A DNA stretch of 64,000 nucleotides from Pristiophorus japonicus (lineage: Eukaryota), in contig NC_091995.1 in NCBI RefSeq assembly GCF_044704955.1, positions 49,662,001 through 49,726,000 of the forward strand, in the 5' to 3' direction. Position numbers and translations under genes: made by a program. This document shows positions 16,199 through 43,300 of the stretch, piece after piece. The notes beneath the pieces were generated by a model. It was not told the origin of the DNA, did no database searches, and worked only from the letters and a program-made list of their open reading frames with translations. Within the stretch, counting starts at the first letter, position 1, and each line of letters starts with the position of its first letter.

Positions 16199-16252
16199 CT
16201 TCCCACAGGCCAGGCCGGTTACTTCACCCAGCAGGCCGCAGATTCCAGTCTC

Positions 16253-19995: not shown

Positions 19996-19996
19996 C

Positions 19997-22900
19997 CGTT
20001 ATATATGCAGACTTTCGATATACTCTCAGTGTAGTCATGTATAGTTGCATAAGATGAAGACTTGTTTACTTGATGTACTATCGGTGGGGTTTATACTGTG
20101 TATATACATGCTGGCACCACTAGAGGGTGCAACTGGTGGAGATCGGGGTTTCCTGTCCTGCCTTGGTGGCAGGGGCTGTATAAAAGGGGAGCCACCATGC
20201 GACTGCCTCATTCTGGAGTTAGAAGTAAAGGACCAAGGTCACTACAGTTTGATTACAACACATTGCCTCATGGAGTCATTCACAAGTACACTACAGACAT
20301 AATAACTGGCAACGAGAATACGGACTTTCACGCGATTATGGCTACCTTTGGCACACTAAAAGACTTTGTAGAGGATGACGATTGGGATGCCTTCATGGAA
20401 AGGCTCGAGCTATATTTCAAGGCAAACTACCTGGCATGGGAGACGGACACATTGGTGGAGAAGTGCAACGCTATACTGCTGACCAGTTGTGGGCCCGAGG
20501 TCTACCAACTCATCAGGGACTTGCTGGCACCCACGAAGGCCAAGGATAAGACATATGATGAGCTGACTGAACTAATTCGCGTCCAACTTAAACCAGAAGA
20601 GAGCACCCTCACAGCCAGACACGGATGCTACACTCACCACAGACCTGCGGGCCAGGAGCTTGCAAAATATGCTGCCGATCTCAGGAGACTTGCGGCACCG
20701 TGTGATTTTGGCATGCACCTCAACGAAGCATTGCGAAACATCTTCGTTATAGAAATTGGCCACGAGGGCCTCCTTCACAAACTATTATCTGCCGACACCA
20801 CAATCAACCTGCAGAAAGCCATCAGCATCAGTCAGGCGTTCATGACCTCGACCTGCAGCACCAAGCAAATTATTCATCCTGTGGACTTTAACCCGGCAAG
20901 TACTGTACACAGAATGGTGCCTTTCACAGGCAAGACTGTAGAACGTGGCTCTGCCCAGGGTAGAAAGCACAGACCTCAGGGTATTAGAACTCAGAGTCCG
21001 CTGAGGGGTTCTAATCGAGTAGCACCATGTTAACCGGTTCACCAGTATCGGTTTGCTGAGTATATATGCAAAGCCTGTAACACGAAGGGCCACCTCCAGC
21101 TTATGCGTAAAAGAAATACGACTCATCGTCTGACAGAGGAGTCGGTAGATGACTTTGAATCCAGGGAGTATGATAATTTGGCCAGAGGAGCGGCTCAGCC
21201 CCAAGAAGTGGTGTATGGAGTGTATACCTGCACCACTGATTGTCCTCCAGTGAAGATGGAAGTTGAGATAAACGGCGTTCCAGTCTTCATGGAAGTGGAC
21301 ACGGGTGCGAGCCAATCAGTGATGAGCCAGGATGCCTTTGAGAGGCTATGGAATAAAAAACGACCCGAGCTGGTTCCAGTATAGGAAAAGTTACGCACCT
21401 ACATCAAGGAGCTGATCCCAGTCCTTGGTAGTGCGGATGTAAGTGTAACCCATAATGGCGTGGTGCACAAGTTACCTCTGTGGATTGTTGCAGGTGATGG
21501 CCCAACGGTACTCAGAAGAAGGTGGATGGGGAAGATCCCGTGGAAATGGGAAGACCTCTGCACTCCAGCAATCGATGTCCCCCGTGCTCAGAGTCAGAGT
21601 AAAACCTCACCTTCGCACCAGAGAACAGACCAGCGCAGCATCTGAGGCACAGACCATCCATCATGACTGCGTGGCAATTATCCGACTGGAACGACCTAAA
21701 AGTACCTTCCCGGCTTCAGTGGCAGGACTCCCTGGGAGGAAGGTGGAATTCACAGGCACTCTTCCAGCTTTTGTGGCAGAATCGCGGGAGAGATGGATCA
21801 AGGCAGTTGACCTCGAAGACAGAGGCAAGGTGGCGTCCCTGCTGCAGCAAGGAGCAGCATGGCGTGGCAGGGTTCTCTTAAAGGAGACCTGCAACTAACT
21901 GAACTTAAAGAGACATTATACGCATGGCAATCAATGTAATGAACCGATTAGGAATATAAAGAACAATACGTTGCGGGATGTCGGGAATAGAGTGTCCCCA
22001 AAAGTAGCAAGCCAGCGACCTCAGGAGGGTGAAGGCACTGATCCTGATAACCTGCCCCAGATCTATCCCATGCTACAGGCACCCGATGGCACCATTTGCC
22101 ACGGACCTGGAAACGAAAATGGCGCCAATACGCGCAGTCGGCCGCCGTTGCCCACCACCCGGGTGGAGACTGCGCAGCCCCCAGACCCAGTCACTATCTC
22201 GGCCATGTCCGGAAGCGAAAGTTCAGCACCAACGAGTTCCCCAAATGGGACCTGGAACAGCCAGGTTCCCAACACCGTTAGAGAGCAGGCAGAAGATTCT
22301 GCAGCCCTCAAAAGAGGACAGGGAGGCCACACACATCTGTTGCTCTGCTCACCACTAGGCAACAGCAAAGGCCCTGAGTCCTGGCAGGGTGAGTGAACCA
22401 AGCCTACCCTCCTAGCAGGGGGCGCAGCGCCGCCATCCGACGACTAGCACCCCGTCCGGTTGCTCTGGAACTAGCGTCCTCGCATACCTGTATTGCTACC
22501 TCAGTACTGACCATGACTGAACTAATTATGCAATCTATCCAATCCTGACGCACGACCATAAAACGTAATGAATGTAAGTCACTGAACCAAGGTGTCACGA
22601 TACAAACGATAAAATAAATGTTTTTTTTCTTCCTTTCTTTGTAATTGCACTGTGTCTGATCCTGTATGTTTATGTAATGGGCCAGCTGCATGATCTCGCT
22701 GTGGCAGGGGTTGGTGGTGATTGAATGGATGTAAGTAGCCATAGACACACATATGGATCATACCCAGAACCCCTCTGGAACCTCCACTGCATCATCGAAC
22801 CATCCAAACTGGTAACCACTACCCAACATTGTGGCAAAAGGACTTGGGGGTTAACAGGGAGTGAGCCAAGCCAAAGCACAGCCAAGGTGCAAGGGCTATT

Positions 22901-23286
22901 GGCACTTAAGTCTGGGGAGAGCTAAGCCAGAGCACATAGTGCAAAGGTAATCGGCACAAAGGACTTGGGGAGAGTGATGTTATATATGCAGACTATAGAT
23001 ATACTCTCTGTGTAGTCACTGTATATTTGCATAAGATGGAGATTTGTTTACCTGATGTACTATCGGTGGGGTTTACACTGTGTATATATATGCTGGCACC
23101 ACTAGGGGGTGCAACTGGTGTAGACCGTGGTGTCCTGTCCTGCCCTGGTGGCAGGGGCTGTATAAAAGGTGAGCCACCATGCGGCTGTCTCACTTTGGAG
23201 TTACGAGTAAAGGACCAAGGTCACTACAGTTTGAGTACAACACATTGCCTTGTGGAGTCATTCACAAGTACACTACAGACATAATA
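19997..23286 (+). mobile_element. Non-autonomous Gypsy-type LTR element A (Gag-PR, no RT/IN)
   Basis: LTRs 19997-20304 and 22978-23286 (~308 bp); PBS-like TGGCAACGAG; PPT GGGGAGAGTGA; near-TSD AGTCC/AGTTC. Gag from 20338 (MATFGTLKDF..WDAFMERL), CxxC..GHLQLM knuckle, protease MEVDTGASQS. Confidence 0.9.
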
Positions 23287-23334
23287 AGTTCCTTGTCTCT
23301 CGGCAAGCAATCTCTTTACTCTCAGCCCCCAGTA

Positions 23335-24055
23335 CCCTGTGCTCGCTGACTTACATTGACTTCTAGTTAAGCAACTCCTCGATTTAAAAATTTTCATCTT
23401 TGTTCTCAAATTCCTCCATGGGCTAGCCCTCCCTATCTCTGTAATCTCCTCCGACCCTATCTTACCCCGAGATCTCTACCCTCCGTCAATCCTGCCCTCT
23501 TGATCATCCCTGATTATAATCGCTCAACCAACATGCCTTCAGCTGCCTGGGTCCTAAGATCTGGAACTCCCTCCCTAAAGATCTCCACCTCTCTACCTCA
23601 CTTTCCTCCTTTAAGACGCTCCTTAAAACCTACCTCTTTGACCAAGTCTTTGTTCATCTGCTGTAATTTCTTCTCATGTGGCTTGGTGTCAAATGTATTT
23701 GTTTTGTCTTATAACACTGCTGTGAAGGGCCTTAGGACGTTTTGCCACGTTAAAGTCACTATATAAATAAAAGTTGTTGTTGTTGTTGTTGAGATCTCTG
23801 CACTCTGCCAGTTCTGGCCTCTTGACCATCCCCGATTTTAATTGCTCCACCATTGGCAGCCTTCAGCTGCCTGGATCCTAAGGTCTGGAATTTTTCCCTA
23901 AATCTTTGCGCCTCTACTTCTCTCCTCATTTAAGACGCTCCTTAAAACCTATCTCTTGGACCACACTTTTGACCGTGCGCCCTAACATCTCCTTATGGCT
24001 TTGTGTAAAATTTTGTTTCTTGATATTAAAGGCGCAACATAAATGTAAGTTGTTG
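23335..24055 (+). mobile_element. Two tandem L2-type 3' ends
   Basis: CTGGAACTCCCTCCCTAAA..TTTAAGACGCTCCTTAAAACCTA.. occurs twice, with (GTT)n tails. Confidence 0.7.
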
Positions 24056-24189
24056 TCCCTCGGCCCCCAGTCCCCTGGCCCTCAGTCCCATCAGCCGCCA
24101 CTCCAATTGCCCTTAGAATCTGGTGCTCAGGCGCTTAATAATTTTTGTTGTTTCTCTTCTCTAGGATGGAAGGGAAGTTGGGCTCTGCT

Positions 24190-25917
24190 GGAAGTGGCAG
24201 AGACGTTAAACAAATATTTTGTATTGGTCTTCACGGAAGAAGACACTAAAAACATCTCAACAGTGGATATTCAAGGGGCTAAAGGTAGGGAGGAACTTAA
24301 TACATCACTATCACTAATGAAGTAGTACTCGGTAAAATAATGGGACTAAAGGTGGTCAAGTCCCCTGGAAATGATGCCTTACATCCTAGGGTCATAAGAG
24401 AAGTGGCTGCAGCGATAGTGGATGCATTGGTTGTAATCTACCAAAATTCCCTGGATTCTGGGGAGGTCCCAGCAGATTGGAAAACCGAAAATGCAACACC
24501 CCTATTTAAAAAAGGAGGCAGACAAAAAGCAGGAAACTATAGACCAGTTCACCGAACATCTCTCGTTGGGAAAATGCTGGAGTCCATTATTAAGGAAGCA
24601 GTTGCGGGACATTTGGAAAAGCATGATTCAATCAAGCAGAGTCAGCATTGCTTTATGAAAGGGATATCATGTTTGACAAATTTGCTGGAGTTCTTTGAGG
24701 ATATAACGAGCAGGGTGACGAAGGGGGATCAATGAATGTGATGTATTTGGGTTTCCAGAAGGTGCCACGTAAGAGGTTACTGAACGAGATAAAAGCTCAT
24801 GGGGTTGGGATAATATTTTAGCATATATAGAGGATTGGCTCACTAACAGAAAACAGAGAGTCGGGATAAATGGGTCATTTTCCAGTTGGCAAACAGTGAC
24901 TAGTGGGGTGCCACAGGGATCGGTCCTCAACTATTTACAATCTATATTAATGACTTGGATGAAGGGACCGAGTGTAATGTAGCCACGTTTGCTGATGATA
25001 CAAAGATGGTTGGGAAAGCAACTTGTGAGGAGGACACAAAAAATCTGCAAAGGGATATGGACAGGCTAAGTGAGTGGGCAAAAATTTGGCAGATGGAGTA
25101 TAATGTGGGAAAATGTGAGGTTATCGACTTTGGCAGAAATAATAGAAAAGCAAATTATAACTTAACTGGAGAAAAATTGCAAAGTGCTACAGTACAGAGA
25201 GACCTGGGGATCCTTGTGCATGAAACACAAAAAGTTAGTATGCAGATACAGCAAGTAATCAGGAAGGCAAATGGAATGTAGGCCTTTATTGCAAGGGGAA
25301 TAGAGTATAAAAGCAGAGAAGTCCGACTACAAATGTACAGGGTATTGGTGAGGCCACACCTGGAGTACTGCGTACAGTTTAGGTCTCTGTATTTAAGGAA
25401 GGATATACTTGCATTGGAGGCTGTTCAGAGATGGTTCACTTGGTTGATTCCGGAGATGAGGGGGTTGACTTATGAAGATAGGTTGGGTAGGTTGGGCCTA
25501 TACTCATTGGAGTTCAAAAGAATGAGCGGTGATCTTATTGAGAGTTATAAAATAATGAGGGGGCTCGACAAGGTGGATGCAGAGAGGATATTTCCACTCA
25601 TAGGGGAAACTAAAACTAGGGTACATAGTCTTAGAATAAGGGGCCGCCCATTTAAAACTGAGATGAGGAGACATTTTTTCTGTGAGAGTTGTAAATCTGT
25701 GGAATTCTCTGCCCCAAAGAGCTATGGAGGCCGGGTCATTGAATATATTTATGGAGATAGACAGATTTTTGAGCGATAGGGGAGTAAAGGGTTATGGGGA
25801 GCAGGCAGGAAAATGGAGCTGGGCCCATGATCAGATTAGCCATGATCTTATTGAATGGCGGAGCAGGCTCGAGGAGCCAATTGGCCTACTCCTGCTCCTA
25901 TTTATTATGTTCCTATG
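24190..25917 (+). mobile_element. CR1 LINE, 5'-truncated
   Basis: KSPGND.LHPR, NYRPV, FADDT and C-terminal CR1 motifs; tail TATGTTCCTATG. Confidence 0.9.
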
Positions 25918-26425
25918 GTCTTCTGGATCAATTGTGTGTCACTTCGGAGCTAAATTAAAGACCTTTGGAGATCCTGGGACCAGGCACCACCCTCCTCCCC
26001 ATCACCACCTACAACACTGACAGACAGCAGGCTGTCCTTCTCCAGTCTGGGCCATCTTTGAGAAATCCCATCACAAACAGCAGCCAAACTAGGTAGGGAC
26101 GGCAGGTTCCCTTCCCTGAAGCACCTCAGTTAGTTTTTACGGCAAAGATTCACAAGGATGATACCAGAACTGCAAGTATATATCCATCAGTAAAGGTTGA
26201 ACAGGCTGGTGCTCTTTTCTCTCGAAAAGAGAAGGATGTGGGAAGGCCTTTAAGAATATCAAGGGGTTCAATAGAGTAGACGTTAAGAAGATGTACGAGT
26301 GGGGAGGGTCCAAAACTAGGTGCCATAATTATAAAGAAAGAACTTGCATTTATAAAGCATTGTTCACAACCTCAGGACATCCCAAAGCTCTTTACATCCA
26401 ATTAACTATTTAATGTCGGAACTAT

Positions 26426-29400
26426 TGGCCTCGAATTCCCGGCCTGCCAGGTCCGTATGGAGTGTGTACGAACCCGGGAAGGCATCGCAAAAGCATGCGC
26501 TGAAAACCGGCTTTTCCGATCTGTGAGCTGGAGCTTGACAGATCATCTGTATATCGGGAGCGAGGACATTTGCATGGACAAGATTGCGGTATTTACCATA
26601 TCTTGCCCAGCAAATGTCCTCAAAACTCTTGCGCCCGATAAAAGCAGGTGCATAACCTATTTCTACAGGCGTAAGAGTTTTAAAACATATAAAAACATAC
26701 AAAATAAAATTAAAAAACACATTTTATTTTTAAAAAGCCTGCCCATTACGTTAAATTTATTTTAAACCATAATTTTAAAAACTTTTTAAAAACTCGGAAA
26801 ATTTTTTCTCTAAGGTATTTATTAACTTTAATTTCAATTAATTTTAATTACGTGAGGTGTGTTTTTTATTTTTTATTTGGTATTGTGTTTGGGGTTTTTT
26901 TTCAATTACGGAGTTCCCATTGATATTAATTGAGAATATTTTACCTGATAGGCTGAGCAGTCACACATGACTGCATCTTCTGCGTGGGAACCTGGAGGAC
27001 GGGAACGTGTTTCGCAGCGCGAGAAGAGAAGGTATAGTATATGCAAACACTCTAATAACGACAAGGTAAGGATATAGTACTTGAACTGTAGTGACCTTAG
27101 TCCATTTATTGCAGCCCCTTGAGTGAAGACACAATGAGGTGAGCTCCCTTTTATACTTGGTTACCTGCGGTGTGCAGGTGATCCTTAGGTCTCCACCAGT
27201 AGCACCCTCTAGTGGTACAGGTATGGTGTATACAGTGTGAATATACATTCAGTGGTCCAGTGTTACAGTACATACATTAACATACACAACAACACTCCCT
27301 CCTAAGTCTTGTGCCACAGGCTTTTGCACTGTGTTCTCTGGCCCTCGACTTGAGTGCCCAAAGCCCTTGCACTTTGTCTTTGCTTGGGAATGGCTCTCTC
27401 CCTGTGGACCCCTAAATCCTTATTGCCATGACATTGGGAAGTGGTCAGCAGTGGACGGTTGGAGGTGTAGTGAGGGTTGTGTGGGTTCTGGGTGTGATCC
27501 ATTTCCCCCCGCCCCCCTCCCCCCCCCCCATGCATAGACCAAGTGTGTGGCTCAACACCTGCATTGGCATACATGTAGAGTGAGTGAGGAATCTGGTTGG
27601 TTGTGTCACTGTTTTTGAGTTCAGCAGTGGTGGAGCAAGTACATACATACATTATATTGTTTGGGTGGGTGAGGACATTTAGTGGTGGGCAGAACCACAG
27701 GGTGGTGTGGCCTCCCTGTCCTCCATTGAGGGCCGCAGGGCCACCCTGCTGCCCTTCATGGTGGTGGAAGTCTGGTCATCTCAGGTCCCGCCGGGAAAGC
27801 TGGAGGGTACTGGCCTCTTGCTCCCGGTGCTGGCCCTGGTGTCTACGGGGGGTAGGGCCGATCTGGGGCAGGTTGCCAGTGGTGGTGGCTGTGCCGTCCA
27901 TTGATCGCTGGCCCTGCAGTGGGTATGCTCCCAATGTGTGTGTGCACCCACCCTGGGACATCACATTGGTCCCGGAGGCTCAGGCTACATGATCAGTTAG
28001 CCCACTGGACCTGGGTGTTTCCCACGGGAGATTGCCTTTGGCATTGTCGGCATACATGTAGAACCCGGCATCATTTCTCATTTTATCATTAGCATTCATG
28101 ATACATTGGCTCCTACCGCAACCAGCCGACTCGACATTGTTATTTGTCTTTACACGTTCACATTTGTCCATTACAACACTTTCCTGTGTACTATCAGTAT
28201 CTCTGTGCAAGGTTATATTTGGGTACCTGCCTTTGTTAGTTACATTTGTCTCATTAGCATTACCAGCATCACTGTTTAACAGTACGAATTTGTCACTTAC
28301 ATCACTTTTTTGAGTACTATCAGCATTTCTGTGCAAGGTTACATTTGGATACCTGTCTTTGTAAGTTACATTTTTCTCATTAGCATTACCAGCATCACCG
28401 TTCAACAGTACATTTATATACTTGCATTCATTAATTACACTTTTATCATTAGTGTCACCTGCATCGCTGTACCAAGAGTGGACCTGTCCCTTTAATTGTC
28501 TTGGGTTGCCGGTCTCCTTTAAGAGGGCCTTGCAATCTTTACCCCAATCCGGTTCACTGCTCAGCATCACGTGTTGCTCCCTCAACGCTGCCCCTCGTGG
28601 TCTGGTCGTGGCCATCTTGATTTCACGTGCGGGCGCCATCTTCTTTCTCTCCAAGAGGTAGGCTGCGGTGACCCTTTTCTCCCCAGGTTCTGCCACGGAC
28701 GCCAATCTTCTTCGCTCTGAGGCCTGCCACTGGAGCCCGGAAGGTGAGGTCTGGTCGTTCAGGTTGGATCATCTCATAGTTGAGTTGTGCAGTCTGTGTC
28801 ATTGCCACACAGTCAAGCTGGATGGTAGGATTTCCAGGTGCTGCGATGGATCCAAGTTTGGGGCCGCGTAGGACGTTGATCGCTGGGGCCTAGAGGCTTT
28901 CCCCGCTCCAACAGATTTGGATTTGCTTCATCCATCTTCCCAGCAGCGATGGACCATCACCGGCAACAATCCACAAAGGAAGCTTATGCATCGCGCCGCC
29001 ATAGGACACCTGGACATCTACGCTGCCAACGACTGGGATGGTGTCTTTTGTGTAAGTGAGCAACTTCGCCTGGATTGGAAACATTTTGGGTCATTTGGCA
29101 GGATTGTCCCAGACTTTCTCGAAAGCCATCTGCTTCATCAGCGATTGGCTCACCCCTGTGCGAATCTCCATCGAGACTGGAACACTGTTGATTTCTACTT
29201 CCATTTTCTATGGGGAACTCTCGGTGGAGCAGGTATACAGTCCGTACACCTCTTTCAGGGGCTGAATCGCTTCGTCTTCATCACCTCTGGAGCCCTGGTG
29301 ATCAGCCAACTCATCAACAACTTGGTGAGTAAAATTTCTTCTACACATTCGCTGGAGATGACCTTTAGTGTTACAGCCTTTGCGGTATAGTCTTTGTATC

Positions 29401-30514
29401 GGCACTGGTGGGCCCTGTGGTTTCCTCCACAACGCCAGCACGGGGCTAGCCGGTTGGCCCCATGTGGCGGATTCAAGGTTGCGGGACTCGGGGCAGCAGC
29501 CATGCCTCTGAAAGGCACCATTCGGTTCACTGTACTCGTCGGGTTAGAGTCCTGGGGGTGAGTCACCATCCTCTTGGAGTTGCAGACCGAAATCATGAAT
29601 GCCTGGCTTACTTTGATTGCCTTCTGCAGGGTGACCGAAGTGTCCGCAGAGAGCAGCTTGTGGAGGAGGCCCTCGTGGCCGATTCCAATAACGAAGATGT
29701 TCCTGTGCTTTGGTGAGGTGGTCGCCAAAATCACACGGTGCAGCCAATCTTCTCAGGTCTGCAGCTTATTTAGCAATTTCTTGGCCTTCGGGCCGCCGGT
29801 GGGTGTAGAACCGATGTCTGGCTGTGAGGATGCTCTCTTTAGGTTTGAGTTGTTCTTGTATTATAGTTACGAGCTCCGCATAAGTCTTGGTTGTCATCTT
29901 CGCCGGGACTAGCAGGTCCCTGATGAGGTCGTAGACGTTGGGCCTACAACTGCTGAGCAGGATGGCTCTGCGCTTATCCGCCAGCGAGGTCGGTGTGTCT
30001 CCAGCCAGGCCATTCGCGATGAAAAAGTGTTCGAGCCTTTCTACAAAGGCATCCCAATCTTCCCCATCAGTGAATTGTTGGAAGTTGCTTAGGTTAGACA
30101 TGTTGTGCGTGGAAATTCGTAACCTCGTCGCCAGTTGTAGTATATGCAAGCACTCTAATAACGACTCCACAAGGTAAGGGTTTAGTACCTGAACTGTAAT
30201 GACCTTAGTCCATTTATTGCAGCTCCTTGAGTGAGGACACAATGAGGGGAGCTTCCTTTTATACTTGGTTATCTGCAGTGTACAGGTGACCCTTAGGTCT
30301 CCACCAGTAGCACCCTCTGGTGGTACAGGTATGGTGTATACAGTGCGAAGGTGCATTCAGTGGTCTAGTGTTACAGTACATACGTTAACATACATAACAG
30401 AAGGCCTCCCCAACAGAATTCCACGCTCCTCCGGGACCACTAGGTACTTTCGGAAAAATTGGCCGATTGGAGGCGTTTGTCTGAAAGAAGCCTCCGACCG
30501 GAATTTCAGGGCCA
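26426..30514. mobile_element. PIF/Harbinger-type MITE split by LTR element B
   Basis: Imperfect TIRs TGGCCTCGAATTCC (26426) and GGAATTTCAGGGCCA (30500-30514); non-coding, AT-rich interior. Confidence 0.55.
27033..30399 (-). mobile_element. Non-autonomous Gypsy-type LTR element B (Gag-PR, no RT/IN)
   Basis: LTRs 30136-30399 and 27033-27291; perfect 5-bp TSD GAAGG; PBS TGGCGACGAG; PPT GGAGGGAGTGT. Gag ATG at 30101, CWRCGGNHRAHQC knuckle, degenerate protease MEIRTGVSQS. Confidence 0.92.
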
Positions 30515-30694
30515 GTAATGTAAGATGGTCACTAATATATTAAATAGGGAATTCATGGGAAATGTCTTTATCCGGAGAGTGGTGAGAATGTGGAATTCGA
30601 TACCACAGAGACTGGTTGAGGCAAATAGCATGGATGGATTTAAGGGGAAGTTAGATAAACACATGAGGGAGAAAGGAATTGAATGATATGTTGA

Positions 30695-33550
30695 GATAAG
30701 AACATAAGAAATAGGGGCAGTAAGCCATCCAGCCCCTCGAGCCTGCTCCGCCATTTAATACGATCATGGCTGATCCGATCATGGACTCAGGTTCACTTTG
30801 CTGCCCGCTCCCCATAACCTCGGATTCCCTTATCGGTTAAGAAACTGTTGATCTCTGTCTTAAATTTATTCAATGTACCCAGCTTCCACAGCTCTCTGAG
30901 GCAGCGAATTCCACATATTTACAATCCCCCGAGAGAAGAAATTCCTCATCTCAGTTTTAAATGGGCGGCCCCTTATTCTTTGCCCACTCACTTAGCCTCT
31001 CTAGGTCTTTTTGCAGGTGTTTTGTGTCCTCCTCACACATTGCTTTTCCTCCCATCTTTGTATCATCAGCAAACGTGGCTACATTACACTTGGTCTCTTC
31101 ATCCAAGTCATTAATATAGATTGTAAATAGTTGGGGTCCCAGCATTGGTCTCTGCGGCACCCCACTAGTTACTGATTGCCAACCCTAGAATGAAGCATTT
31201 ATCCCGACACTCTGTTTTCTGTCAGTTAGCCAATCCTCTATCCATGCTAATATATTACCCCCAACCCTGTGAACTTTTATCTTGTGCAGTAACCTTTTAT
31301 GTGGCACCTTGTCAAATGCCTTTTGGAAGTCCAAATGCACCACATCCACTGGTTCCTCTTTATCTACCCTGTTCGTTACATCCTCAAAGAATTCCAGCAA
31401 ATTTATCAAACATGACTTCCCCTTCATAAATCCACGCTGACTCTGCCTGACTGAACTTTACTTTTCCAAATGTCCTGCTACTGCTTCTTTAAAAATGACT
31501 CCTCCAACATTTTCCCAACCACAGATGTTAGGCTAACTGGTCTATAGTTTCCCACTTTTTGTCTGCCTCCTTTTTTAAATAGGGACGTTACTTTTGCAGT
31601 TTTACAATCTGCTGGGACCTCCCCAGAATCCAGGGAATTTTGGTAAATTACAACCAATGCATCCACTATCTCTGCTGCTACTTTCTTAAGACCCTAGGAT
31701 GCAAGCCATCAGGTCCAGGGGATTTATCCGCCTTTCGTCCCATTATCCTACTGAGTACTACCTCCTTAGTGATTATGATTGTGGTAAGTTCCTCCCCCCC
31801 TGATAGCCCCTTGACTATCCACTGTTGGGATATTGTTAGTGTCCTCTACCGTAAAGACTGATACAAAATATTTGTTCAGAGTTTCTGCCATCTCCATGTT
31901 CCCCATCACTAATTTCCCGGTTTCGTCATCTAAGGGTCCAACATTTACTTTAGCCACCCTTTTCCTTTTTATATACCTGTAGAAACTCTTGCTATCTGTT
32001 TTTATATTTCATGCTAGTTTACTTTCATAGTCTATCTTCCCTTTCTGAATCATTTTTTAGTCATTCTTTGCTGGCTTTTAAAAGCTTCCCAATCTTCTGT
32101 CCTCCCACTAGTTTTGGCCACTTTGTATGCCCTTGTTTTTAATTGGATACCATCCTTTATTTCTTTATGGATGGCTATCTTTTCTTTTACACCCTTTCCT
32201 CCTCACTGGAATATATTTTTCTTGAGAGTTATGAAATATCTCCTTAAATGTACGCCATTGTTCATCAACCATCCGACACTTTAATCTATTTTCCCAGTCC
32301 ACTTTAGCTAACTTTGCCCTCATAGCTTTGTAGTCTCCTTTATTTAAGCTTAGTACGCTGGTTTGAGATCCAACTTTCTCGTCCTCCATCTGAATTTGAA
32401 ATTCAACCATGCTATGATCACTCATTCCAAGGGGATCCTTTACTCGGAGATTGGTTATTACTCCTGTCTCATTACACAGGACCAGATCTAAGATAGCCTG
32501 CCCCCTGGTTGGTTCCGTTACATATTGCTTAAGGAACCCATCCCTTATGCACTCTATGGAATCTTCCTCAAGGCTACCCTGACCAATTTGATTTGTCCAA
32601 TAAATATAGAGGTTAAAATCACCCATAATTATTGCTGTTCCATTTTTACAAGCCCCCACTATTTCTTGGTTTATACTCCGACCAACAGAGTTACTACTGT
32701 TAGGGGGCCTATAGACTACGCCCACCAGTGACTTTTCCCCTTATTATTCCTTATCTCCACCCAAACTGTTTCAACATCCTGATTATTTGAGCCAATATCG
32801 TTTTTCACAATTGCATTGATTCCATCCTTTATCACAGAGCTACCCCACCTCCTTTTCCTTTCTGCCTGTCCTTCCGAATTGTCAAATACCCCTGAATATT
32901 TCGTTCCCAGTCCTGGTCACCTTGCAACCACGTCTCTGTAATGGCTATCAGATCATAACCATTTGTATTTATTTGTGCTGTCAACTCATCTATTTTGTGC
33001 ATTTAGACAAAGAGCTTTTAAATTTGTTTTTTTTACCTCTTTTTTTTTTCTGCTTTGTTCCTCTGTCCTTCAAACTTACTTTCTTCATTTTTGCTTTCTA
33101 ATTCCAGCTTTATTCACTTCTCTACTGAATCTATCCTCAGGTTCCCATCCCCCTGCCAAGCTACTTTAAACCCTCCCCAACAGCACTAGCAAACCTCCCC
33201 GCGAGGATATTGTCCTGGCTCTGTTAAGGTACAACCCTTCCGACTTGTACAGGTCCCATCTCCGCCAGTAGCGGTCCCAATACCTCAGGAAACTAAAGCC
33301 CTCCCTCCTACACCATCTCTCCAGCCATGCATTCATCTGCCCTATCCTCATATTCCTGTACTCACTAGCTCCTGACACTGGGAGTAACCTGAAGATTACT
33401 ACCTTTTGAGGTCCTGGTTTTTAATCTCTCTCCTCGCTCCCTAAACCCTGCCTGCAGGACCTCATCCCTCTTTCTATCTATGTCATTGGTCCCAATATGG
33501 ACCACAACCTCGGGCTGTTCACCCTTTTCCCCCCAGAATGCCCTGCAGCC
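30695..33550 (-). mobile_element. CR1 LINE with internal deletions (ORF1 esterase end, endonuclease, RT, 3' end)
   Basis: VVVHIGTNDI, YRPPNS..MGDFN, NYRPVSLTS, LDFQKAFDKVPH and FADDT motifs. Confidence 0.9.
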
Positions 33551-33719
33551 GGATGAAGGGATGGGAGGAGGCGCATGTGGAGTATAAATACCGGCAAGGA
33601 CCTGTTGGGCCAAATGGCCTGTTTCAGTGCTGTACATTGTATGTGAGCTGACCGATTTCCTGAATGTTGTTGCTTATGCCAGTGCACCAGATTTATTCTG
33701 CTCAATTACACAACTTGTC

Positions 33720-34915
33720 ATTTAGTCATAGATATTTACAGCACAGGAGGAGACCTTTCAGCCCATTGTGTCTGTGCTGAATGAAAAAGAACTATTCAGC
33801 CTAATCCCAGTTTTCAGCTTTTGGTCCAGAGTCTTGTAGGTTATGACAATTCAAGTACATATCCAAGTGCTTTTTAAATGTGGTGAGCGTTTCTGCCTCT
33901 ACCATGCTTTCAGGCAGTGAGTTGCAGATCTCCACCACCCGCTGCGTGAAAGTAATTCTCCTCAACTCCCCTCTAATCCTTCTACCAATTACCTAAAATA
34001 TATGTTCCCTTAACCTTCCTGCTAAGGGAAATAGGTGCTTCCTATCCATTCTATTCAGGTCTCAAATTAAGTCTCCCCTCAGCCGCCTCTGTTCCAAAGG
34101 AAACAACCCCAAAATATCCAATCTTTCCTCATAGCTAAAATTCTCCAGTCCAGGCAACATCCTCGTCAATCTCCTCTGTACCCCCTCATGCAATCATATC
34201 TTTCCTGTAATGTGCTGACCAGAACTGTATGCAGAATTCTAGCTGTGGCCTACAGTTTTATACAGTTCGAGCATTAGCTCCCTTCTCTTATATTATATTC
34301 TATTCGAAGTCTAATAAAGAACTGTATCCAGTGTGCCTTTTGAACCACCTTATCGACCTGTCCTGCTACCTTCAGGGATCTGTGGACATGCATTCCATGC
34401 ATTTCTCTACACTTCTCAGTATCCTACCATTTATTGAGTATTCCGTTGCCTTGTTAGACCTCCCCAAATGCATTACCTCACACTTCTCTGGATTGAATTC
34501 CCTTTGCCACTTTTCTGCTCATCTAACCAGTCCATTCATATCTTCCTGCAGTCCACAGCTTTCTTCCTAACTATCAACCACACGACACGGCTATTTCTGT
34601 ATTATCTGGCAACTTCTTAATCATGCCCCCTACATTGAACTCCAAATCATTGATGTATACCACAAAAAGTAAATGATCTAGTACTGAGCCCTGTGGATTC
34701 TCACTGGAAGCAGGCTTCCAATCACAAAACCAGCAGTCGACCATTACCATTTGCTTCCTACTTCTGAGCCAATTTTGGATCCAACTTGCCACCTTCCCTT
34801 GGGTCCCATGGGCTTTTACTTTTCAGACCAGTCTGCCATGTGTGACCTTGTGAAAGCCTTGTTAACATCCATGTAAATGCGCTACCCACATCGACCCTCC
34901 ATGTTACCTCCTCAT
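33720..34915 (-). mobile_element. Older CR1 RT/3' fragment
   Basis: WIQNWL..PQGSVL..YINDL peptide, degenerate. Confidence 0.75.
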
Positions 34916-35254
34916 GTTGGGATTTGAGCTTGCAACCTCTGGGTTACTAGTCCTGGACCAGAACCAGTTCCTTCCTGTACCTGGTGGTGCCATCAGAGAG
35001 GTCTCCACTATCACAACACTGCAAATCCTTTCAGACAGGGGCAGGGCCTTCAACTTCTGCCCGGTGCAAGAATCATGCAGTGGAGTATGAAGGATGATCC
35101 TTTATTAGAAGGTCAGGATTTGCATCAGCAGAAAAAGGCTCACTGTCCCACACACACAAATAAACATATCACCTGCAATCCCAAAACAATTCCGCTGCTG
35201 CTGATGGCTCACAGCGCCTCATGGATGCCTAGTTTTGAGCTGCTAGATCCCCAC

Positions 35255-35935
35255 CATTAACATCCTGGAGGTCACCATTGATCAGAAACTTAACTGGACC
35301 AACCACATAAATACTGTGGTAACAAGAGCAGGTCATAGGCTGCGTGTTCTATGGTGAGTGCCTCACCTCCTGACTCCCCAAAGCCTTTGCACGATCTACA
35401 AGGCACAAGTCAGGAGTGTGATGGAATACTCTTCACTTGCCTGGATGAGTGCAGCTCCAACAACGCTCAAGAAGCTCGACACCATCCAGGACCAAGCAGC
35501 CCATGTGATTGGTACCCCAACCACCACCTTAAACATTCACTCCTTCCACCACCGGCGCACCATGGCTGCAGTGTGCACCATCTACAAGATGCACTGCAGC
35601 AACTCGCCAAGGCTTCTTCAGCAGCATCTCCCAAATCCGCGACCTATACCATCTAGAAGGACAAAGGCAGCAGGCGCATGGGAACACCACCACCTCCAAG
35701 TTCCCCTCCAAGTCACACACCATCCTGACTTGGGAGTATATCGCAGTTACCTCATGTCACTGGGTCAAAATCCTGGAACTCCTTTCCTAACAACACTGTG
35801 GGAGAACCTTCACCACAAGGACCACAGTGGTTCAAGAAGCCAGCTCACCACCATCCTCTCATGGGCTTTTAGGGATGGGCAATAAATGCTGGCCTGCCAG
35901 CGATGCCTACATCCCAGGAACAAATAAAAAAAAAA
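35255..35935 (+). mobile_element. CR1-group (Crack/Daphne-like) LINE 3' end
   Basis: TIYKAQVRSVMEYS.LAW..LDTIQD peptide; tail GGGATGGGCAATAAATGCTGGCC..poly(A). Confidence 0.7.
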
Positions 35936-36035
35936 GTTTGCCAACCTGAAAATGACCCATTTATCTCGACTCTCTGTTTTCTGTTAGCCAATCTTCCATC
36001 CATGCTATATATTACACCCAACACTATGAGTTCTT

Positions 36036-36749
36036 GGGGCCGAAATTGCCCCCGACTGAAAGTAGGCGCACCTATCGTTTCTGAAGATTTTTCTCTGCGT
36101 CAACCATGGGGCGGAGAGTGGAGCACCATTGAGGACTTTAAAATACATTTCATCTCCAGGCGGTGTTCAGGTCAGCTGCGAGGTGGAAGTGCGTGTGGAG
36201 CGTGTCGGACGTCGGTATGTGCCATCATGCCGTGCTGATAACGTCAGCGCCTGCTCCTTCAGGAGAGGGCCGCAGCGAACTCTGCATTAGCTTCAGTGGC
36301 ACCCACTGGGCCACCAGGGTGGGTTACGGCCAGGCCGGTGGCCCGGCACCCAGAAGGGGGTGCTGGGCTGAAGGCTGGCAGCCCGGCCGAACCCATGGCC
36401 ACCAATGTCGGGCCAGCCTTGAAGTCAGCCGAAAATGAACATAAAATGGTGGCCGAGGCAGTGCACCCTCACCTTTAAGGGCTGACACGCCGCCCAGGCA
36501 CACACAGCTTCCCACAGGGGAAAGCTGTCGGGGGCATCGACCGGCAGCCGATCTGCTCCCATGGGGCAATTTCATCCGCGGGTTGAAAGGGGTCATCGCC
36601 GGTCAGAAGGGGGTCGGCACGTGCCCGAGGGAGCGGCAATACGTGGGGACAATTTAGAGTCGGCCCATCTGCCTGCTCCCGGTCGGTGAGGCGTATCCGC
36701 TCCATTAGAGGCGGTAATGGACCTTAAGGAGGATGGCAATTTCGGTCCC
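36036..36749. mobile_element. PIF/Harbinger-type MITE
   Basis: 15-bp TIRs GGGGCCGAAATTGCC / GGCAATTTCGGTCCC; 3-bp TSD CTT. Confidence 0.75.
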
Positions 36750-37105
36750 CTTATATTGTGCAGTAATCTTTTATGTGGCACCTTATCGAATGCCTTTTGG
36801 AAATCCAAATACACCACATCCACTGGTTCCCCTTTATCCATCCTGCTCATTCCATCCTCAAAGTGCTCGAATAAATTTGTCAAGCACAATTTCCCTTTCA
36901 TAAAACCATGTTGACTCTGCTTGATTGTATTATGATTTTCTAAATGTTCAGCTACTACTTTCTTAATAATGAATTCCAGCATTTTCCCAACGACAGATGT
37001 TAGGCAAACTGGTCTATATTTTGGTGCTTTCTGTTTTCCTTCTTTCTTGAATAGAGGCGTTACATTTACGGTTTTCCAATCTGCTGCGACATTTCCAGAA
37101 TCTGG

Positions 37106-40100
37106 GGTATGTCTTTAGGTGCTCTGACAATGATTCCACGAGACAATGTGTTGTATTTGAACTGTAGTGACCTTAGTCCTTTAATGATAACTCCAGAATG
37201 AGGATCACACATGGTGGCCTGCCTTTTATACTAGGCCAGGCAAGTACATTCGACTGGTGAGATACATTTTTGATGCGTACTGGGAATCGGTACGGGTGTC
37301 AGCACAAGTGTGTAAGGACAAGCTAGTTCTAGAATTGCTGGATGGTGTCCAGGTAGTCTGGTGGCGGCGCGGTGCCCAGTGCTGGCAGTGGGAACCCGAT
37401 TGGCTCAAGTTTCCTGCTCTCGGGGCTTTCGTCGTTGATCCTAGCGTCGGGCAGGTTCACAGATGCCTGTGACCTTCCTGTCCTTTCCTGGGTCACTGCT
37501 GCTCCCTGAGGAGCCGGTGTCTAGCAGTGCACAGGGAACTGCTGACTCGCTTGCCAGTCGAATGTACTTGCCTCACAACTGAACCACCAATGTAATGGTG
37601 TTAATGCAAATCTTTTTTCTGGACTTGAATGTATTTGAATGTAATGAGTCTCCAGCATAATCTATATGTGGCGGGGGTGGGGGGGGAGAGAGAATGAAGT
37701 GGTCATGGACACACAACGAAACACCAACCACTCACCCAAGATGGAAACGACCCGTCAAAGGTCAACCAGATAGAGCCAAACCCGAGCACAGTCAATGCAG
37801 AGGCGATTTGCACTAAAGGCTTGGGAGAGAGTGATGTCATATATCCTGCATGGTTACTGCTTGTACTATTACAAGGTGTGCCACCAAAGGGCACTGCAGT
37901 GGGAGACTTGCAGGTTAACTGTACAGGTCTTTGATTTGGGATCCTGGTTGGTCCCGGTCCCATTTGGGAGAACTGTTGCGGGTGACCCTTCGTTTCCGGC
38001 TATGGCTTGGGGGTGATGGGGTCTGGGGGCTGCGCCTTGGCACAGTTTGCTCTTTCAGGCTCATGGCGGTTGATGCCATCAGGTGCCTGAGAGGTGGAGC
38101 CGATCAGGGGCAGGGTATCGATACCGGTGCCGTTGCCCTCCTGAGATCGCTTGCTCTGCAATTCGTATGTATTGGCTGCTTGAGCCACACTCCATGGTGC
38201 ATAACTCTGGTCCCAGGGACGCAGGCTACTAAATTGGATAGCTCGCTGGACCTGTGTGCTCCCGATGGGTGTCTGCCCGCTGCATTGACTGTATGCAGTT
38301 GAAATCCTACATCGCGCAACGTTTCATTACTCATGTAAATAACCTGTAGCTCCGATCATGATCGCGCGCCTTTTCTTTGCTTATTGCATGTACACAACGC
38401 TGATCATCAATTACACATCTTACATCTAACTCACAGTTGCTCTTACATTGATTGAAAATGTGGAACTGTCCCTTTGAGAGAGCCTTGCTTGCTTTACCCC
38501 AATCCTCTTCTCCGTTTGGTGCCACGTCTTGCTCCATCAGCGCTGCACCTCGTGGTCTGGCCGCCGCCATCTTTTTCTTCAGCGCCTCACCTTGTGGTTT
38601 GGGCGCCATCTTTCCACCATCCACGATGTCGACCGCGGTGATCCTCTTCTCCCCGGGTTCTGCCACCGAAGCTGGGAAGTCGCCTTTGGATCTGATTTTC
38701 TTCCTTCGGAGTTCTGCCACCGGAGCCTGGAAGGTACGTTCGGTTGGTCTCAGCTGGATCATCTCCACGCAGTCGCGCTGAGTGGTCTGTGCCTCTGGTG
38801 CTGTGCTGGTCTGCTCTCTGCTGCCGGGTCCACCCTCAGGTGAGGGCTTGCTTTACCTCTGAGCGCGGAGGACGTCGATCGCTGGAGGGATGAAGTCTTC
38901 CCAACTCCAATGGATCTTCTCCATCCACCTTCTTCTTAGTAGCATTGGTCCATCACCTGCAACAATCCACAGAGGTAACCTGTGCACCGTGCCATCATGG
39001 AGTACCTTTACATCTGCACTACCAACGACTGGGATAAGTTCATCAGTGTAGGTGCGCAGCTTTGCCTGAACCGGGACCAACTTGGGTCATTCAACTTGAT
39101 TGTCCCATAGCCTCTCAAAGGCTTCTTGATTCATTACTGACTGCCTCGCCTCTGTGTCCACTTCCATGAAGACTGGAACGCCATTTATCTCGACTTCCAT
39201 TCTCAACAGGGAACACTCGGTGATGCAGGTAAACATGCTACATATCTCATCGTGGGGCTGAGCTGCCTCTCTGCCTATCGATTCATAATTGCGCTGGATT
39301 CATGGCCATCTGCAGACTCTTCATCAACACAGTGAGTCATATTTCTTTTACACATTCGCTGGAGATGGCCCTTTGTGCTGCAGCCTTTAAAGCGGCACTG
39401 GTGAGCCCTGTGATTCCCTCCGCAACGGCAGCATGGAACTACTCGATTAGCCCCCGTCGGCAGATTTTGAGTTAAGGGATTCGGGGGCCTATTCTCTCTT
39501 CCCAGAGAAGGTTCACGTTCTACAGTCCAGCCTCTAAAAGGCGCCACTCTGTGCACAGTACGATGAGTCATCTGCCTAGAGCCACAGGTCGAGGTCATGA
39601 ATGCCTGGCTCACGGAGATGGCCTTCTGCAGTGTGACTGTGCTGTCCGGAGACAGTAGCTTATGAAGAAGGCCCTCATGGCCGATTCCAATGACAAAGAT
39701 ATCCCACAGCGCTTCAGTGAGGTGGTTACCGAAATCACACGGTGCCGCCAGCCTCCTGAGGTCTGCAGCATATTTCGAGATTTCCTGGCCTTCGGGCCGT
39801 CGGTGTGTATAGAACCAGTGTCTGGCTGTGAGGATGCTCTTTTTGGGTTTCAGTTGCTCTTGGATCAGCGTTACAAGCTCCTCGTACGTCTTGGTCGTTG
39901 TCTTTGCTGGTGCCAGCAAGTCCCTGACGAGGCCGTAGACAGTGGGCCCACAACTGGTTAGCAGAATAGCTCTGCGCTTATCAGTCAGTGTGGCCTGATT
40001 GTCGCCTGCCAGGTTGTTTGCTGTGAAGAAGTGGTCACGCCTCTCCACAAAGGCGACCCAATCATCACCATCAGCGAACTGCTGCAATGTACCAAGGGTA

Positions 40101-40371
40101 GCCATTTTCGCGTGAAGTTCCGTAATCTCGTCGCCAATTGTTATGTCTTTTGATGCTCTGACAATGACTCCACGAGGTAATGTGTTGTACTTGAACTGTA
40201 GTGACCTTTGTCCTTTAATGATAACTCCAGAGTGAGGATCACACCTGGTGGCCTGCCTTTTATACTAGGCCAGGCACACCTGTACAGGTAACCTGCAAGT
40301 CTCCCACTGCTGTGCCTTCTGGTGGCACATCTTGTAATAATACAAGCAGTAACCATGTAGGATACATGACA
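37106..40371 (-). mobile_element. Non-autonomous Gypsy-type LTR element C (Gag-PR, no RT/IN) with internal inversion
   Basis: 5' LTR 40139-40371; 3' LTR split into 37106-37242 and an inverted 37835-37928; PBS TGGCGACGAG; near-TSD TCTGG/TCAGG. Gag ORF 39275-40105 with CCRCGGNHRAHQC; protease MEVDTEARQS. Confidence 0.88.
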
Positions 40372-43300
40372 TCAGGCAATTTGGAAGATTACAACCAATG
40401 CATCCACTGTCTCTGCAGTCATTTATTTTAAGACCCTAGGATGCAGGCCATCAGATCCAGGGGACATATTAGCCTTGTCCCATTAGTTTGCCTAGTATTT
40501 TTTCTGTGAAGACCGATACAAAATATTTATTCAAAGTCTCTGCTATTTCCCTGTTTCCCATTATTAAATCTACAGTCTCATCCTCTAAGGAACCAACACT
40601 TCATAAGCATGGAAAGTAGTTGCCCATTAGATCCAGATAACAATTGCTCAAAGATGCTGGAAAATGTTATGCCAGGAAGTCTCGTTTAAGGGAAATGGTT
40701 GTGAGGTAAATAATTGCAAATTGTTTACATATTATGTCTGTTTCCAGAGGATTTGGGAAATGAATATGTCATTTTGACATTTTTTTTTGTTGTAATCAAA
40801 ATATGATGTATAAAGGACCATGGTTTTCAACAGTTTGTGTATGCTCGAAAGATACAGAAACAGGTAAAGTCACTCCCTGTATACAGATACCTTTACTGTG
40901 TAGAAATAAAGTTTGTTCCGTATACGAAGTTTCGTGCTCACTCGAAACGTGTTGTTGTGAAGCAGAGAAGAAAGGAGGTTGCTTAACATTTGCTGCCTTG
41001 AACTCGTCCAACTAATGCACGGATGGTGAGTATGATTTAACATCGATAGTTGGTATAACTAGCTTGTGGGAATCGCGATCTAGGGAATAGGATGGAATCA
41101 GACAAAATAGATGATTTCTCGACCTCATCGGTCCCTTTGAAAATTTCTAGGATTAACAGTAAGGGAGGTCTTACATTTTTTTCCAAGGAAATTTTAAATG
41201 GGAGCTGGGAGGAGATTGAGCAGGCACTGGAGAATGTGTGTCTGCAGAGATGAAACGAGAGTAGACGGAAAATGTTCCTGTTTCAGCCAGAAACAAAATG
41301 AAAGGAGGCAGAGAATATACCTATTGCCAAGAAAGCATGCTCAGACACAGGCTTAAAAATAGGGTCTTGGGCACAAATAGATGCTTAAAGAGGAGTTTGA
41401 TGCAGTCAGGCTCCATGCTGTGTTATCTCCTAATTCCTGTCTGGCTCGTCATGATGCTGTGGTGCAAATATGTGATGAGAGATTGGAATTGGAAGATGAA
41501 GTACGCAGCTTAGAATCTGAGGTGGACAGACTACAGTTAGAAAAGATGCTGGAAAAAGTGTGCGTACAGAACCAGAAACAAATACAGAAACTGGCACAGA
41601 AGCAGAAACAAAGCCTTGGACAATGAACGAAGAGCCTGAGGTGTTGCTCATTCATTCAGTGATGGGAAACTGATACAGAAACATTTAGAGATGAAAGGAA
41701 TGGGAGAAGCTTGCTCAGAAGCACCTTCTGCAGGAATGGGCTGTCTCAGAACTGATGAGCTGCTCAGTGAAAAGCTAAAATGTGGGAGTTATAAGTATGG
41801 TCTAAAGGGACGTGGAATGGAAGTTGGAATGTCGAAAATGTTTAGAGAGGCAGATATAGCATTTCCAAAGCGTGAACTGTGAAAAGGATTGTGACTCTCG
41901 ACTGAATATCCAACATTACCATCACTCTTTGCTGTATGTCGTTACACACATTCTATTAACGGGAGAAAATTGCTAAGAACTGTGCAGGAGATAACCGGTT
42001 TGATTCAGGACACAGATTGTGAGCTTGAAATTTTGAATCAGTACAGAATGGGATTCAGTAGAAAATATCAGAAATTGAAAATTAGTTTCAGGGAAAAAGA
42101 TAAACAGTTTATGATGGAATGAAGGAGAAAAGGGAAGCTCATGACTATTTTTTTCTGTTCTACAGAGCATTTTTTTGTTTTCAGTGTGAATTTTAATGTC
42201 TCTTTACAAAGCATGTGCAAATGTTACTGTGGCACCTCCCCCTTTTTCAAGCTGGAATGTGTGTTGAGTGGGAGAAATTCGTCTGAATTAAATTGGCGTT
42301 ATTTAGGTTAACTAACCTTTTAAATTGTGAAGAACAGCCTTTAATTTTGGCCAAGGTGAAGTTCTGGTTATTGTAAATTGTGTAAAAGCCTCTGGTTCCA
42401 GTCATGAGGCAAATTACATCAATAATTAGCATTTTTATTTTAAAATTTCTGACCACTTTCTGCACTGAATGTTTTCAGATGGTTGTTCATTCATCTTAGT
42501 GACACTGGAATGTGTGACGAGGGGACGGAGCGGGGTGGGGAATGCTACTGCTGTGTGTATGATAATGACGTCTGATATTTTTCACCTGCGGAATTCAATT
42601 GATCAGGATTTTCGTAAAGGCACAAAGAGTTTGCAAAAGTAATTTTTTAAATCAAATTTGGCAAAGGTTTTTAAAATATACATGCAAGCTGAGTGACACA
42701 AGCTGACATTGGTTGATGATGTCTGGGGTTGTCTTGTTTTGCAATGCAAAAAAAAGTTAACACTTTTCACAAGCAGCTGTGTGTTTTTTTAATACTTTCT
42801 GGCATCATATTAACTCTGTTTTAATTCACTATGCAACAACTTGTGCATGATTGACTGGCTGTACATATTTTGGGCATTTTGAAATTTTACGTTTTTAATT
42901 TGAATGGCTGTTTCCCCATACTGACAGGAGGGCTTCAGAAATTGACAAAGGACAAATTAACCCTTTCAGCTGTCAGGAACCGCAATGGTTTTCTGTGTTT
43001 TCATTTAAGCAGAGGACCATATGATGGTGCAAGATTACCAGGACCTCCCTTTACCTCTCAGAAAACAAGACTGGATGAGGTATCTGTTTTGCAAATCCTT
43101 TGAAAACAGACTATCTATGTAAACAGTTTGCAATGGTTAACCTCAGAACCATTTCCCCTACTCGAGACTTCCTGACTTAACATACATTATCATCTTTGAA
43201 GTTAAAGCTGTGCCGACTGCTATCTGTATCGAACCGATTGCTACACCTGTTTTATTACCCTTAATCTCATTTTACATGTTATAACCTGAACTTATTCCCT

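What the first reader, a model, noticed from the sequence alone, without database searches (positions are those of the whole stretch)
19997..40371. Three diverged RT-less Gypsy-type LTR elements share one architecture: LTR-Gag-knuckle-protease-X-LTR
Elements A (19997-23286 +), B (27033-30399 -) and C (37106-40371 -) are each ~3.3 kb with paired LTRs, TGGCG/AACGAG PBS, PPT and 5-bp TSD (perfect GAAGG in B). None shows RT, RNase H or integrase motifs. All leave the normal pol path just after the protease tail (PAIDVPRAQ / PAINVLRG / PAIDVLRAQ). Their LTRs differ in length and sequence (~308, ~260, ~233 bp), so this is a diversified lineage that transposed in the deleted form, not one accidental deletion. 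It resembles plant TR-GAG elements; I am not aware of a description in cartilaginous fish.
Basis: partly seen in the sequence, partly recalled or inferred. Interest (0 to 1): 0.75.

Follow-up and report, generated by a model that had tools for sequence, protein, structure and literature searches.

The report
Parasitic retrotransposons keeping a ghost pol
These are old, broken copies of three abundant jumping-gene families in a likely shark genome; they kept their capsid and protease genes, lost their copying enzymes, likely borrowed those enzymes from complete relatives, and still hold the wrecked enzyme gene open as a long readable tail whose protein sequence seems not to matter.

Summary
The three elements are real, and each belongs to a high-copy family. 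One protease motif has 5,807 exact matches in the genome; none is followed by an RT motif, against 11,598 for a control. A, B and C form one clade and share the same RT deletion junction, so pol was lost once and the lineage then diversified. It is eroded pol: an RT-thumb scrap and RNase H/linker relics, with the RT core and integrase deleted. It continues the gag-protease frame for about 290-410 codons with no shared stop. Capsid and protease are under purifying selection (dN/dS 0.11-0.40); the distal tail is not (about 1). A complete 4.55-kb Mag-like family of the same age, with matching LTR ends, tRNA-Ser PBS and PPT, is the likely helper. The design is known: wheat Sabrina_SA and WHAM are Gag-protease-only. 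TR-GAG, defined as lacking protease, is the wrong label. The open but sequence-neutral pol tail is the unusual part. The scan noted similar Gag-protease elements on other DNA, one with in-frame filler. All copies seen are old (LTRs about 7% diverged).

The parts
19997..20304 (+). Element A 5' LTR (TSD AGTCC at 19992-19996)
20307..20316 (+). A PBS, complementary to the tRNA-Ser(GCT) 3' end (one mismatch in this copy)
20338..22396 (+). A gag-protease-tail frame (about 714 codons in the family; broken in this copy by private stops and frameshifts)
21220..21588 (+). A aspartic protease (DTG)
21690..21760 (+). A RT C-terminal (thumb) relic, just after the RT-core deletion junction (approximate)
22060..22270 (+). 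A RNase H end / linker relic (about 45% aa identity to helper copies; approximate)
22960..23286 (+). A PPT and 3' LTR (22978-23286; TSD AGTTC at 23287-23291)
30136..30399 (-). Element B 5' LTR (TSD at 30400-30404)
30124..30133 (-). B PBS TGGCGACGAG (tRNA-Ser GCT)
27750..30101 (-). B gag-protease-tail frame (about 785 codons in the family), with a 126-bp in-frame tandem duplication at about 28162-28411; broken in this copy
28860..29240 (-). B protease (catalytic Asp mutated in this copy; DTG in 27 of 43 family copies)
27033..27310 (-). B PPT and 3' LTR (27033-27291; TSD at 27028-27032)
40139..40371 (-). Element C 5' LTR (233 bp; TSD CCTGA at 40372-40376)
40127..40136 (-). C PBS TGGCGACGAG
37930..40105 (-). 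C gag-protease-tail frame (about 830 codons in the family; cut here by the rearrangement). Residues 1-180 model as an Arc/Ty3-like capsid
37940..38510 (-). C eroded RT-connection / RNase H / linker relic (185 aligned columns, 31%, HH probability 83%; approximate)
37238..37926 (.). Rearranged 3' part of this C copy: an inverted block with PPT and LTR start, then a displaced block in normal orientation
37106..37242 (-). Remaining 3' half of the C 3' LTR (TSD CCAGA at 37101-37105)

Best explanation
A, B and C are old copies of three sister families of a Mag-like Ty3/Gypsy lineage that lost its RT core and integrase, kept capsid and protease under selection, likely borrowed RT and integrase from a complete relative in the same genome, and kept the eroded pol remnant open as an in-frame tail, likely because translating the RNA favoured its own spread. 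Shown: structure, copy number, one clade, shared RT junction, pol relics, open frame, selection pattern, and a same-age complete family (g7) with matching LTR ends, PBS and PPT. Inferred: Gag acts preferentially on the RNA that made it, since otherwise its sequence would not be selected in a parasite. Inferred: helper Gag-Pol co-assembles into those particles to supply RT and integrase. Inferred (about 50%): the tail is selected for being translatable (RNA stability, or packaging coupled to translation) rather than for its product. The helper makes Gag and Pol from one frame, so a Gag-protease-only partner would add surplus capsid (inferred).
For: Copies: DNA searches scored 40 candidates per family out of 12,106-12,786 and returned mostly colinear copies at 83-90%. 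LTR pairs were found in 56 of 63 copies. TSDs were perfect in 30 of 56, against 0 of 56 in a mismatched-flank control. No pol: a complete Gag-Pol matches only its residues 1 to about 380-417 in all 63 copies. 0 of 60 protease-picked loci and 0 of 30 position-ordered loci have pol downstream. The family protease motif has 5,807 exact hits and 0 with an RT motif behind it; the control has 11,598. One origin: one clade at 100/99-100 in capsid and protease trees against all autonomous groups sampled, and the same RT junction in A, B and C copies. Selection: net dN/dS between families is 0.11-0.15 for capsid, 0.19-0.40 for protease, 0.45-0.96 for the proximal tail and 1.0-1.5 for the distal tail. 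Open tail: 0 shared stops in 294, 365 and 410 codons, against 4-29 in each of the other five frames; neutral simulation expects 3.0-6.7 per family. 13 of 17 shared tail indels keep frame, against 53 of 161 private ones (p=0.0009; about 8 of 11 after merging duplicates by hand, p=0.009). Helper: g7 LTRs score highest against the three families, and median LTR divergence is 0.070 against 0.066-0.073.
Against: No trans-mobilisation, translation or packaging was observed; every copy examined is decayed. Net dS is lower in the tail (0.3-0.6) than in the capsid (0.6-1.1), and the capsid tree joins B with C while the protease tree leaves the three unresolved. Modules may therefore have been exchanged, and part of the gag divergence could predate the shared tail. 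The proximal tail shows some constraint between B and C (0.45, CI 0.27-0.77), so it is not purely neutral. Distal-tail alignments are uncertain and inflate dN. NG86 gives 0.6-0.8 even for presumably neutral within-family divergence. Four shared tail indels are not multiples of 3. One B stop passed the 40% threshold and vanished once copies with large insertions were dropped. At a low divergence (0.10 per branch) the no-stop chance is only 0.015-0.05 per family. The RT-motif pattern would miss a partner with a changed motif or spacing. B's junction is clear in one of two B copies tested and B's pol relics are weak. The g7 partnership rests on likeness and age; g6 (L205) scores nearly as well for A.
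Confidence: 0.8

Rival explanations
1. The tail is a functional protein module (a disordered spacer or an accessory product released by the protease) and is selected for its product.
For: The frame is conserved and stays in phase between A and C. The proximal tail has dN/dS 0.45-0.61 in two of three comparisons. It is low in hydrophobic residues (0.22-0.25 against 0.34 in capsid), which fits a disordered region. A sawshark gene model holds protease and tail in one frame at 41% identity to B's tail.
Against: Distal dN/dS is about 1 or more. Near its end B reads the RNase H relic in a different frame from C and still stays open (phase map). Lengths differ (294-410 codons), and in-frame duplications of 42-126 bp are tolerated. 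No Pfam or Atlas match.
Confidence: 0.25
2. The open tail is only inherited from the old pol frame, and too little time has passed for stops to fix.
For: The tail derives from an open frame, and its relics still lie in the native pol frame. At 0.10 substitutions per site per branch the no-stop chance is 0.015-0.05 per family.
Against: The families differ by about 0.3-0.5 per site in the tail. At 0.18 per branch the no-stop chance is 0.001-0.009 for each of three families. Shared indels mostly keep frame, while private and 3' UTR indels do so only about one time in three.
Confidence: 0.08
3. Each family is a separate recent deletion product of its own, still unseen, autonomous parent, so the selection on gag-protease was inherited from those parents.
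For: Autonomous Mag-like diversity is large (at least 7 groups seen) and was sampled, not catalogued. dS differs among regions.
Against: 0 of 5,807 motif hits have an RT motif behind them. 0 of 90 loci have pol. The RT junction is shared. The relics are eroded far beyond the 7% LTR age.
Confidence: 0.07

Closest known systems
RLG_Sabrina_SA and RLG_WHAM of wheat ('semi-autonomous' Gypsy; PMC9744471; passages and section 17 read)
   Same: High-copy Gypsy families that encode Gag plus protease, lack RT and integrase, and are proposed to co-evolve with an autonomous partner.
   Different: Plant elements of 6.6-8.3 kb whose partner shares only minimal motifs. Here the elements are 3.3 kb, in an animal, and traceable to Mag-like relatives. 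The passages read mention no long open pol-derived tail.
RLG_Quinta / RLG_Cereba (PMC11302176; passages read)
   Same: A non-autonomous derivative that keeps Gag and shares LTR termini, PBS and PPT with its helper; recombination around gag is reported.
   Different: Quinta encodes Gag plus a domain of unknown function and no protease, and it targets centromeres.
TR-GAG (PMC4350172; abstract and 5 passages read)
   Same: Under 4 kb; LTRs, PBS, PPT and Gag; no RT, RNase H or integrase.
   Different: Selected as lacking aspartic protease. These elements keep a selected protease and a pol-derived tail.
Zebrafish Bhikhari (Bik-1/2) and mammalian ERVL-MaLR (PMC12067270, PMC11359688; passages read)
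   Same: Vertebrate LTR elements that spread without pol.
   Different: They are retroviral (ERV) lineages, not Ty3/Gypsy. Bik encodes gag only; MaLR lacks pol and env.
Mouse IAP I-delta-1 (Saito et al. 2008, pmid 18456863; only the title and a citing sentence seen; text not held)
   Same: By its title, translation from a non-autonomous LTR element determines its transposition. From memory, its deletion is in frame.
   Different: A young retroviral deletion variant with near-intact residual pol (recalled), not an old lineage whose pol remnant has eroded to near neutrality.

Membership tests
Ty3/Gypsy, Mag lineage | Gag-protease homologous to Mag-type (K02A2.6-like) Gag-Pol | tested here: met
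   13 Gag-Pol proteins at 27-33%, E down to 2e-30, one named K02A2.6-like. That K02A2.6 is Mag-type is recalled.
Ty3/Gypsy, Mag lineage | PBS for tRNA-Ser or tRNA-Leu; mostly 5-bp TSD; short LTRs | tested here: met
   PBS matches the tRNA-Ser(GCT) 3' end (ARAGORN called that gene in 3 of 6 loci). TSDs. Mag features from PMC3286476 passages.
Ty3/Gypsy, Mag lineage | RT phylogeny groups with reference Mag elements | not tested
   The elements have no RT core, and no named reference Mag RT was in hand for the helper.
Ty3/Gypsy, Mag lineage | Retroelement capsid fold and two CCHC knuckles (the two-knuckle trait of Mag is recalled) | tested here: met
   Model (mean pLDDT 69) hits dArc1, PNMA2, Copia and Arc capsids; best E 0.008, probability 1.0, none at E<=0.001. 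Two knuckles in 52 of 109 decayed copies, at least one in 98.
TR-GAG | Under 4 kb with LTR, PBS, PPT and Gag, in more than one copy | tested here: met
TR-GAG | No aspartic protease | tested here: not met
   Pfam Asp_protease_2 above cut-off in A; DTG in 63 of 109 copies; purifying selection
Semi-autonomous Gag-Pro elements (Sabrina_SA/WHAM type) | Gag and protease kept, RT and integrase absent across the family | tested here: met
Semi-autonomous Gag-Pro elements (Sabrina_SA/WHAM type) | Contemporaneous autonomous partner sharing termini, PBS and PPT | tested here: met
   g7 family. This is likeness and age, not proof of partnership.
Semi-autonomous Gag-Pro elements (Sabrina_SA/WHAM type) | Mobilisation in trans demonstrated | not testable with these tools
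   All copies seen are decayed

The most novel reading that the evidence does not exclude
A vertebrate Gypsy lineage amplified to about ten thousand copies under selection to keep a dead pol gene translatable rather than functional: 290-410 codons stay open across three families while the amino acids drift freely. Translation through the ghost pol would license the parasite's own RNA for packaging or stability. Such an open, unconstrained tail would also be a ready slot for captured host coding fragments, as the scan noted in other shark Gag-protease elements.
Probability: 0.45. Interest if true: 0.68.

Novelty: new variant of a known kind. Interest (0 to 1): 0.5.

Why it matters
It extends the semi-autonomous Gag-protease strategy from cereals to a vertebrate Gypsy lineage. 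It also separates two pressures usually confounded in retroelements: selection on a protein's sequence (capsid, protease) and selection on mere translatability (the pol ghost). With thousands of copies and an identifiable helper family, the cis preference of Gag and translation-linked mobilisation can be studied from the fossil record. In practice, Pfam-based annotation sees almost nothing in these elements, and pieces of them already contaminate shark gene models.

Tried and rejected
Pfam on all 18 frames found only the protease and knuckle, so it cannot see the relics; gag has no Pfam hit either. Host-gene cargo in X: the C tail found no homologue. The B tail found only two sawshark gene models containing the same element type. 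The Atlas gave no usable hit. Short host fragments were not excluded by a nucleotide search against transcripts. Sequencing runs: no RNA holder listed, which is no evidence on expression. The first RT search returned groups g1-g5, which are more distant; the closer g6 and g7 came from the control pattern. Two pol hits near sampled loci (L167 on the opposite strand, L196 upstream of the protease) were judged neighbouring elements. Literature: 10 searches found no description of such elements in cartilaginous fish. The library lacks most subscription papers, and Repbase/Dfam could not be checked, so a library entry may exist. No supplements were read. PMC13343379 and PMC3945221: outline and abstract only. 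PMC8556966, PMC5381603, PMC3391268 and PMC10924933: passages only; the first three added little.

Full report
Observation. All three elements are at the stated coordinates. A has 308/309-bp LTRs at 91.6% identity and a 4/5 TSD. B has 262/257-bp LTRs at 90% and a perfect GAAGG TSD. C has a 233-bp 5' LTR and sits in a LINE that continues across a 4/5 TSD, but its last 690 internal bases are rearranged and its 3' LTR is split. Pfam finds only a protease and a knuckle in 18 frames. The PBS matches the 3' end of tRNA-Ser(GCT), found in this genome and called by ARAGORN in 3 of 6 loci. The Gag matches K02A2.6-like Gag-Pol proteins, and its model resembles Arc/PNMA/Ty3-type capsids, weakly by E-value. 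PBS, 5-bp TSD and short LTRs fit the Mag lineage as tabulated for Culex; I did not test Mag membership by RT phylogeny. The genome is 5.9 Gb.

The deleted form is what spread. Each interior retrieves colinear copies at 83-90% on many contigs. Of 63 copies examined, 56 have LTR pairs, and 30 of those 56 have perfect 5-bp TSDs against 0 of 56 in a control. A complete Gag-Pol matches only its first 380-417 residues in all 63. To avoid bias from querying with the deleted form, I searched with the protease alone: 0 of 60 loci had pol behind it. Neither did 30 loci taken in positional order (13 A-like, 13 C-like and 4 B-like by my count). A clade-specific protease motif has 5,807 exact hits and none has an RT motif at the expected spacing, whereas the equivalent pattern for complete relatives has 11,598. 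The motif survives in 39 of 63 good copies, which suggests at least about 9,400 protease-bearing copies.

One origin. In capsid and protease trees, A, B, C and the unbiased loci form one clade (100/99-100) apart from every autonomous group sampled. Natural A, B and C copies follow the closest complete elements for about 100 nt past the protease and then jump about 535 nt, removing the RT core with its YxDD. The junction falls at the same place in A, in C and, less clearly, in B. No integrase relic was detected.

X is eroded pol. Same-genome profiles place two relics in order in A: an RT-thumb scrap and an RNase H end/linker stretch at about 45% amino-acid identity. Reversed controls are empty. 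In C the relic spans the RT connection, RNase H and linker (185 columns, 31%, probability 83%). B's relics are weak, but its tail aligns confidently to C's.

The tail stays open. Counting stops shared by at least 40% of copies, the gag frame has none for 294 (A), 365 (B) and 410 (C) codons past the protease; the other five frames have 4-29. Neutral simulation expects 3.0-6.7 stops per family, with no-stop chances of 0.001-0.05 each depending on the divergence assumed. Shared tail indels keep frame in 13 of 17 events, against 53 of 161 private ones and 11 of 30 shared 3' UTR ones. Net dN/dS between families is 0.11-0.15 for capsid, 0.19-0.40 for protease, 0.45-0.96 for the proximal tail and 1.0-1.5 for the distal tail. 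Against a clean story: the distal alignment is uncertain, the method reads 0.6-0.8 on presumably neutral within-family divergence, the proximal tail is somewhat constrained, four shared indels break frame, and regional dS differences suggest module exchange.

The helper. Complete 4.5-4.7 kb elements with the same PBS core, PPT and LTR termini abound. The g7 family is closest. It gives the best gag-protease profile scores and LTR scores up to 97-136 for two of its three copies tested, against 26-68 for g1-g5 and about 20 for shuffles. Its 5' LTR/PBS junction is the same as C's, and its median LTR divergence is 0.070 against 0.066-0.073. It encodes Gag and Pol in one frame of about 1,350 codons. 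g6 (L205) is a close second for A.

Mechanism (inferred). Selection on gag and protease in elements that cannot copy themselves implies these proteins helped the RNA that made them. The simplest model is a particle nucleated by the parasite's own Gag-protease on its translating RNA, into which helper Gag-Pol (about 52% identical capsid) co-assembles to supply RT and integrase. Because the helper makes Gag and Pol in one frame, surplus capsid from the parasite could be tolerated or useful, as proposed for wheat. The open tail is best read as selection on translation itself; a functional disordered product is the main rival. A precedent is mouse IAP I-delta-1, of which I saw only the title. Against easy generalisation, the Ty1 abstract reports Gag binding translating RNA without cis preference. 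The idea that filler is kept for translatability was also put forward in an earlier scan note on another genome (e1-8576812); I tested it here independently on these families.

Comparison and verdict. It works like wheat Sabrina_SA/WHAM (Gag plus protease, no RT or integrase) and meets that description. It fails the TR-GAG definition, which excludes the protease. Vertebrate pol-less precedents (Bhikhari, MaLR) are retroviral. Ten literature searches found no description in cartilaginous fish, but repeat libraries could not be checked. The scan has noted Gag-protease-only elements before, in this genome and others. Verdict: real, a new variant of a known kind, with the open, neutrally drifting pol tail as the noteworthy feature. 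Interest 0.5.

Noticed in passing
window 454-760 (+) and about 10950-11360 (+): An MHC class I alpha-2-like exon (Pfam MHC_I, E 6e-17), and downstream a possible transmembrane exon followed by a repetitive charged stretch. The window may start inside an MHC class I-like gene.
   Followed up: partly
window 11500-13841 (+): Decayed hAT DNA transposon (Dimer_Tnp_hAT above cut-off).
   Followed up: partly
window 56780-57688 (+): CR1/L2-type ORF1 with a GDSL esterase domain, ahead of endonuclease-RT remnants; many CR1-like fragments throughout the window.
   Followed up: partly
window 37238-37926: The C copy's 3' end is doubly rearranged (one inverted block with PPT and LTR start, one displaced block), yet the element keeps a 4/5 TSD. 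Whether this arose during reverse transcription or later is unexplained.
   Followed up: partly
A, B and C copies against L205/L208: At the RT deletion junction a 14-20 nt patch aligns to the same spot inside the deleted RT in most pairwise alignments, hinting at two deletions or a template switch rather than one cut.
   Followed up: no
P0014, P0015, P0016: Sawshark gene models (S-arrestin-like, tetraspanin-4-like, uncharacterised) include gag or tail pieces of this clade: annotation contamination or exonisation.
   Followed up: partly
L183, L199 and several C-like loci among L175-L204: More diverged subfamilies with variant tails, so the clade has more than three families.
   Followed up: partly
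G000, genome-wide: At least seven groups of complete Mag-like Gypsy elements (4.5-4.7 kb) with over 11,000 exact double-motif hits. A review passage describes the elephant shark genome as poor in non-LINE/SINE elements.
   Followed up: partly
window 16245-17087, 56064-56593, 6416-6739: Tandem repeat arrays.
   Followed up: no
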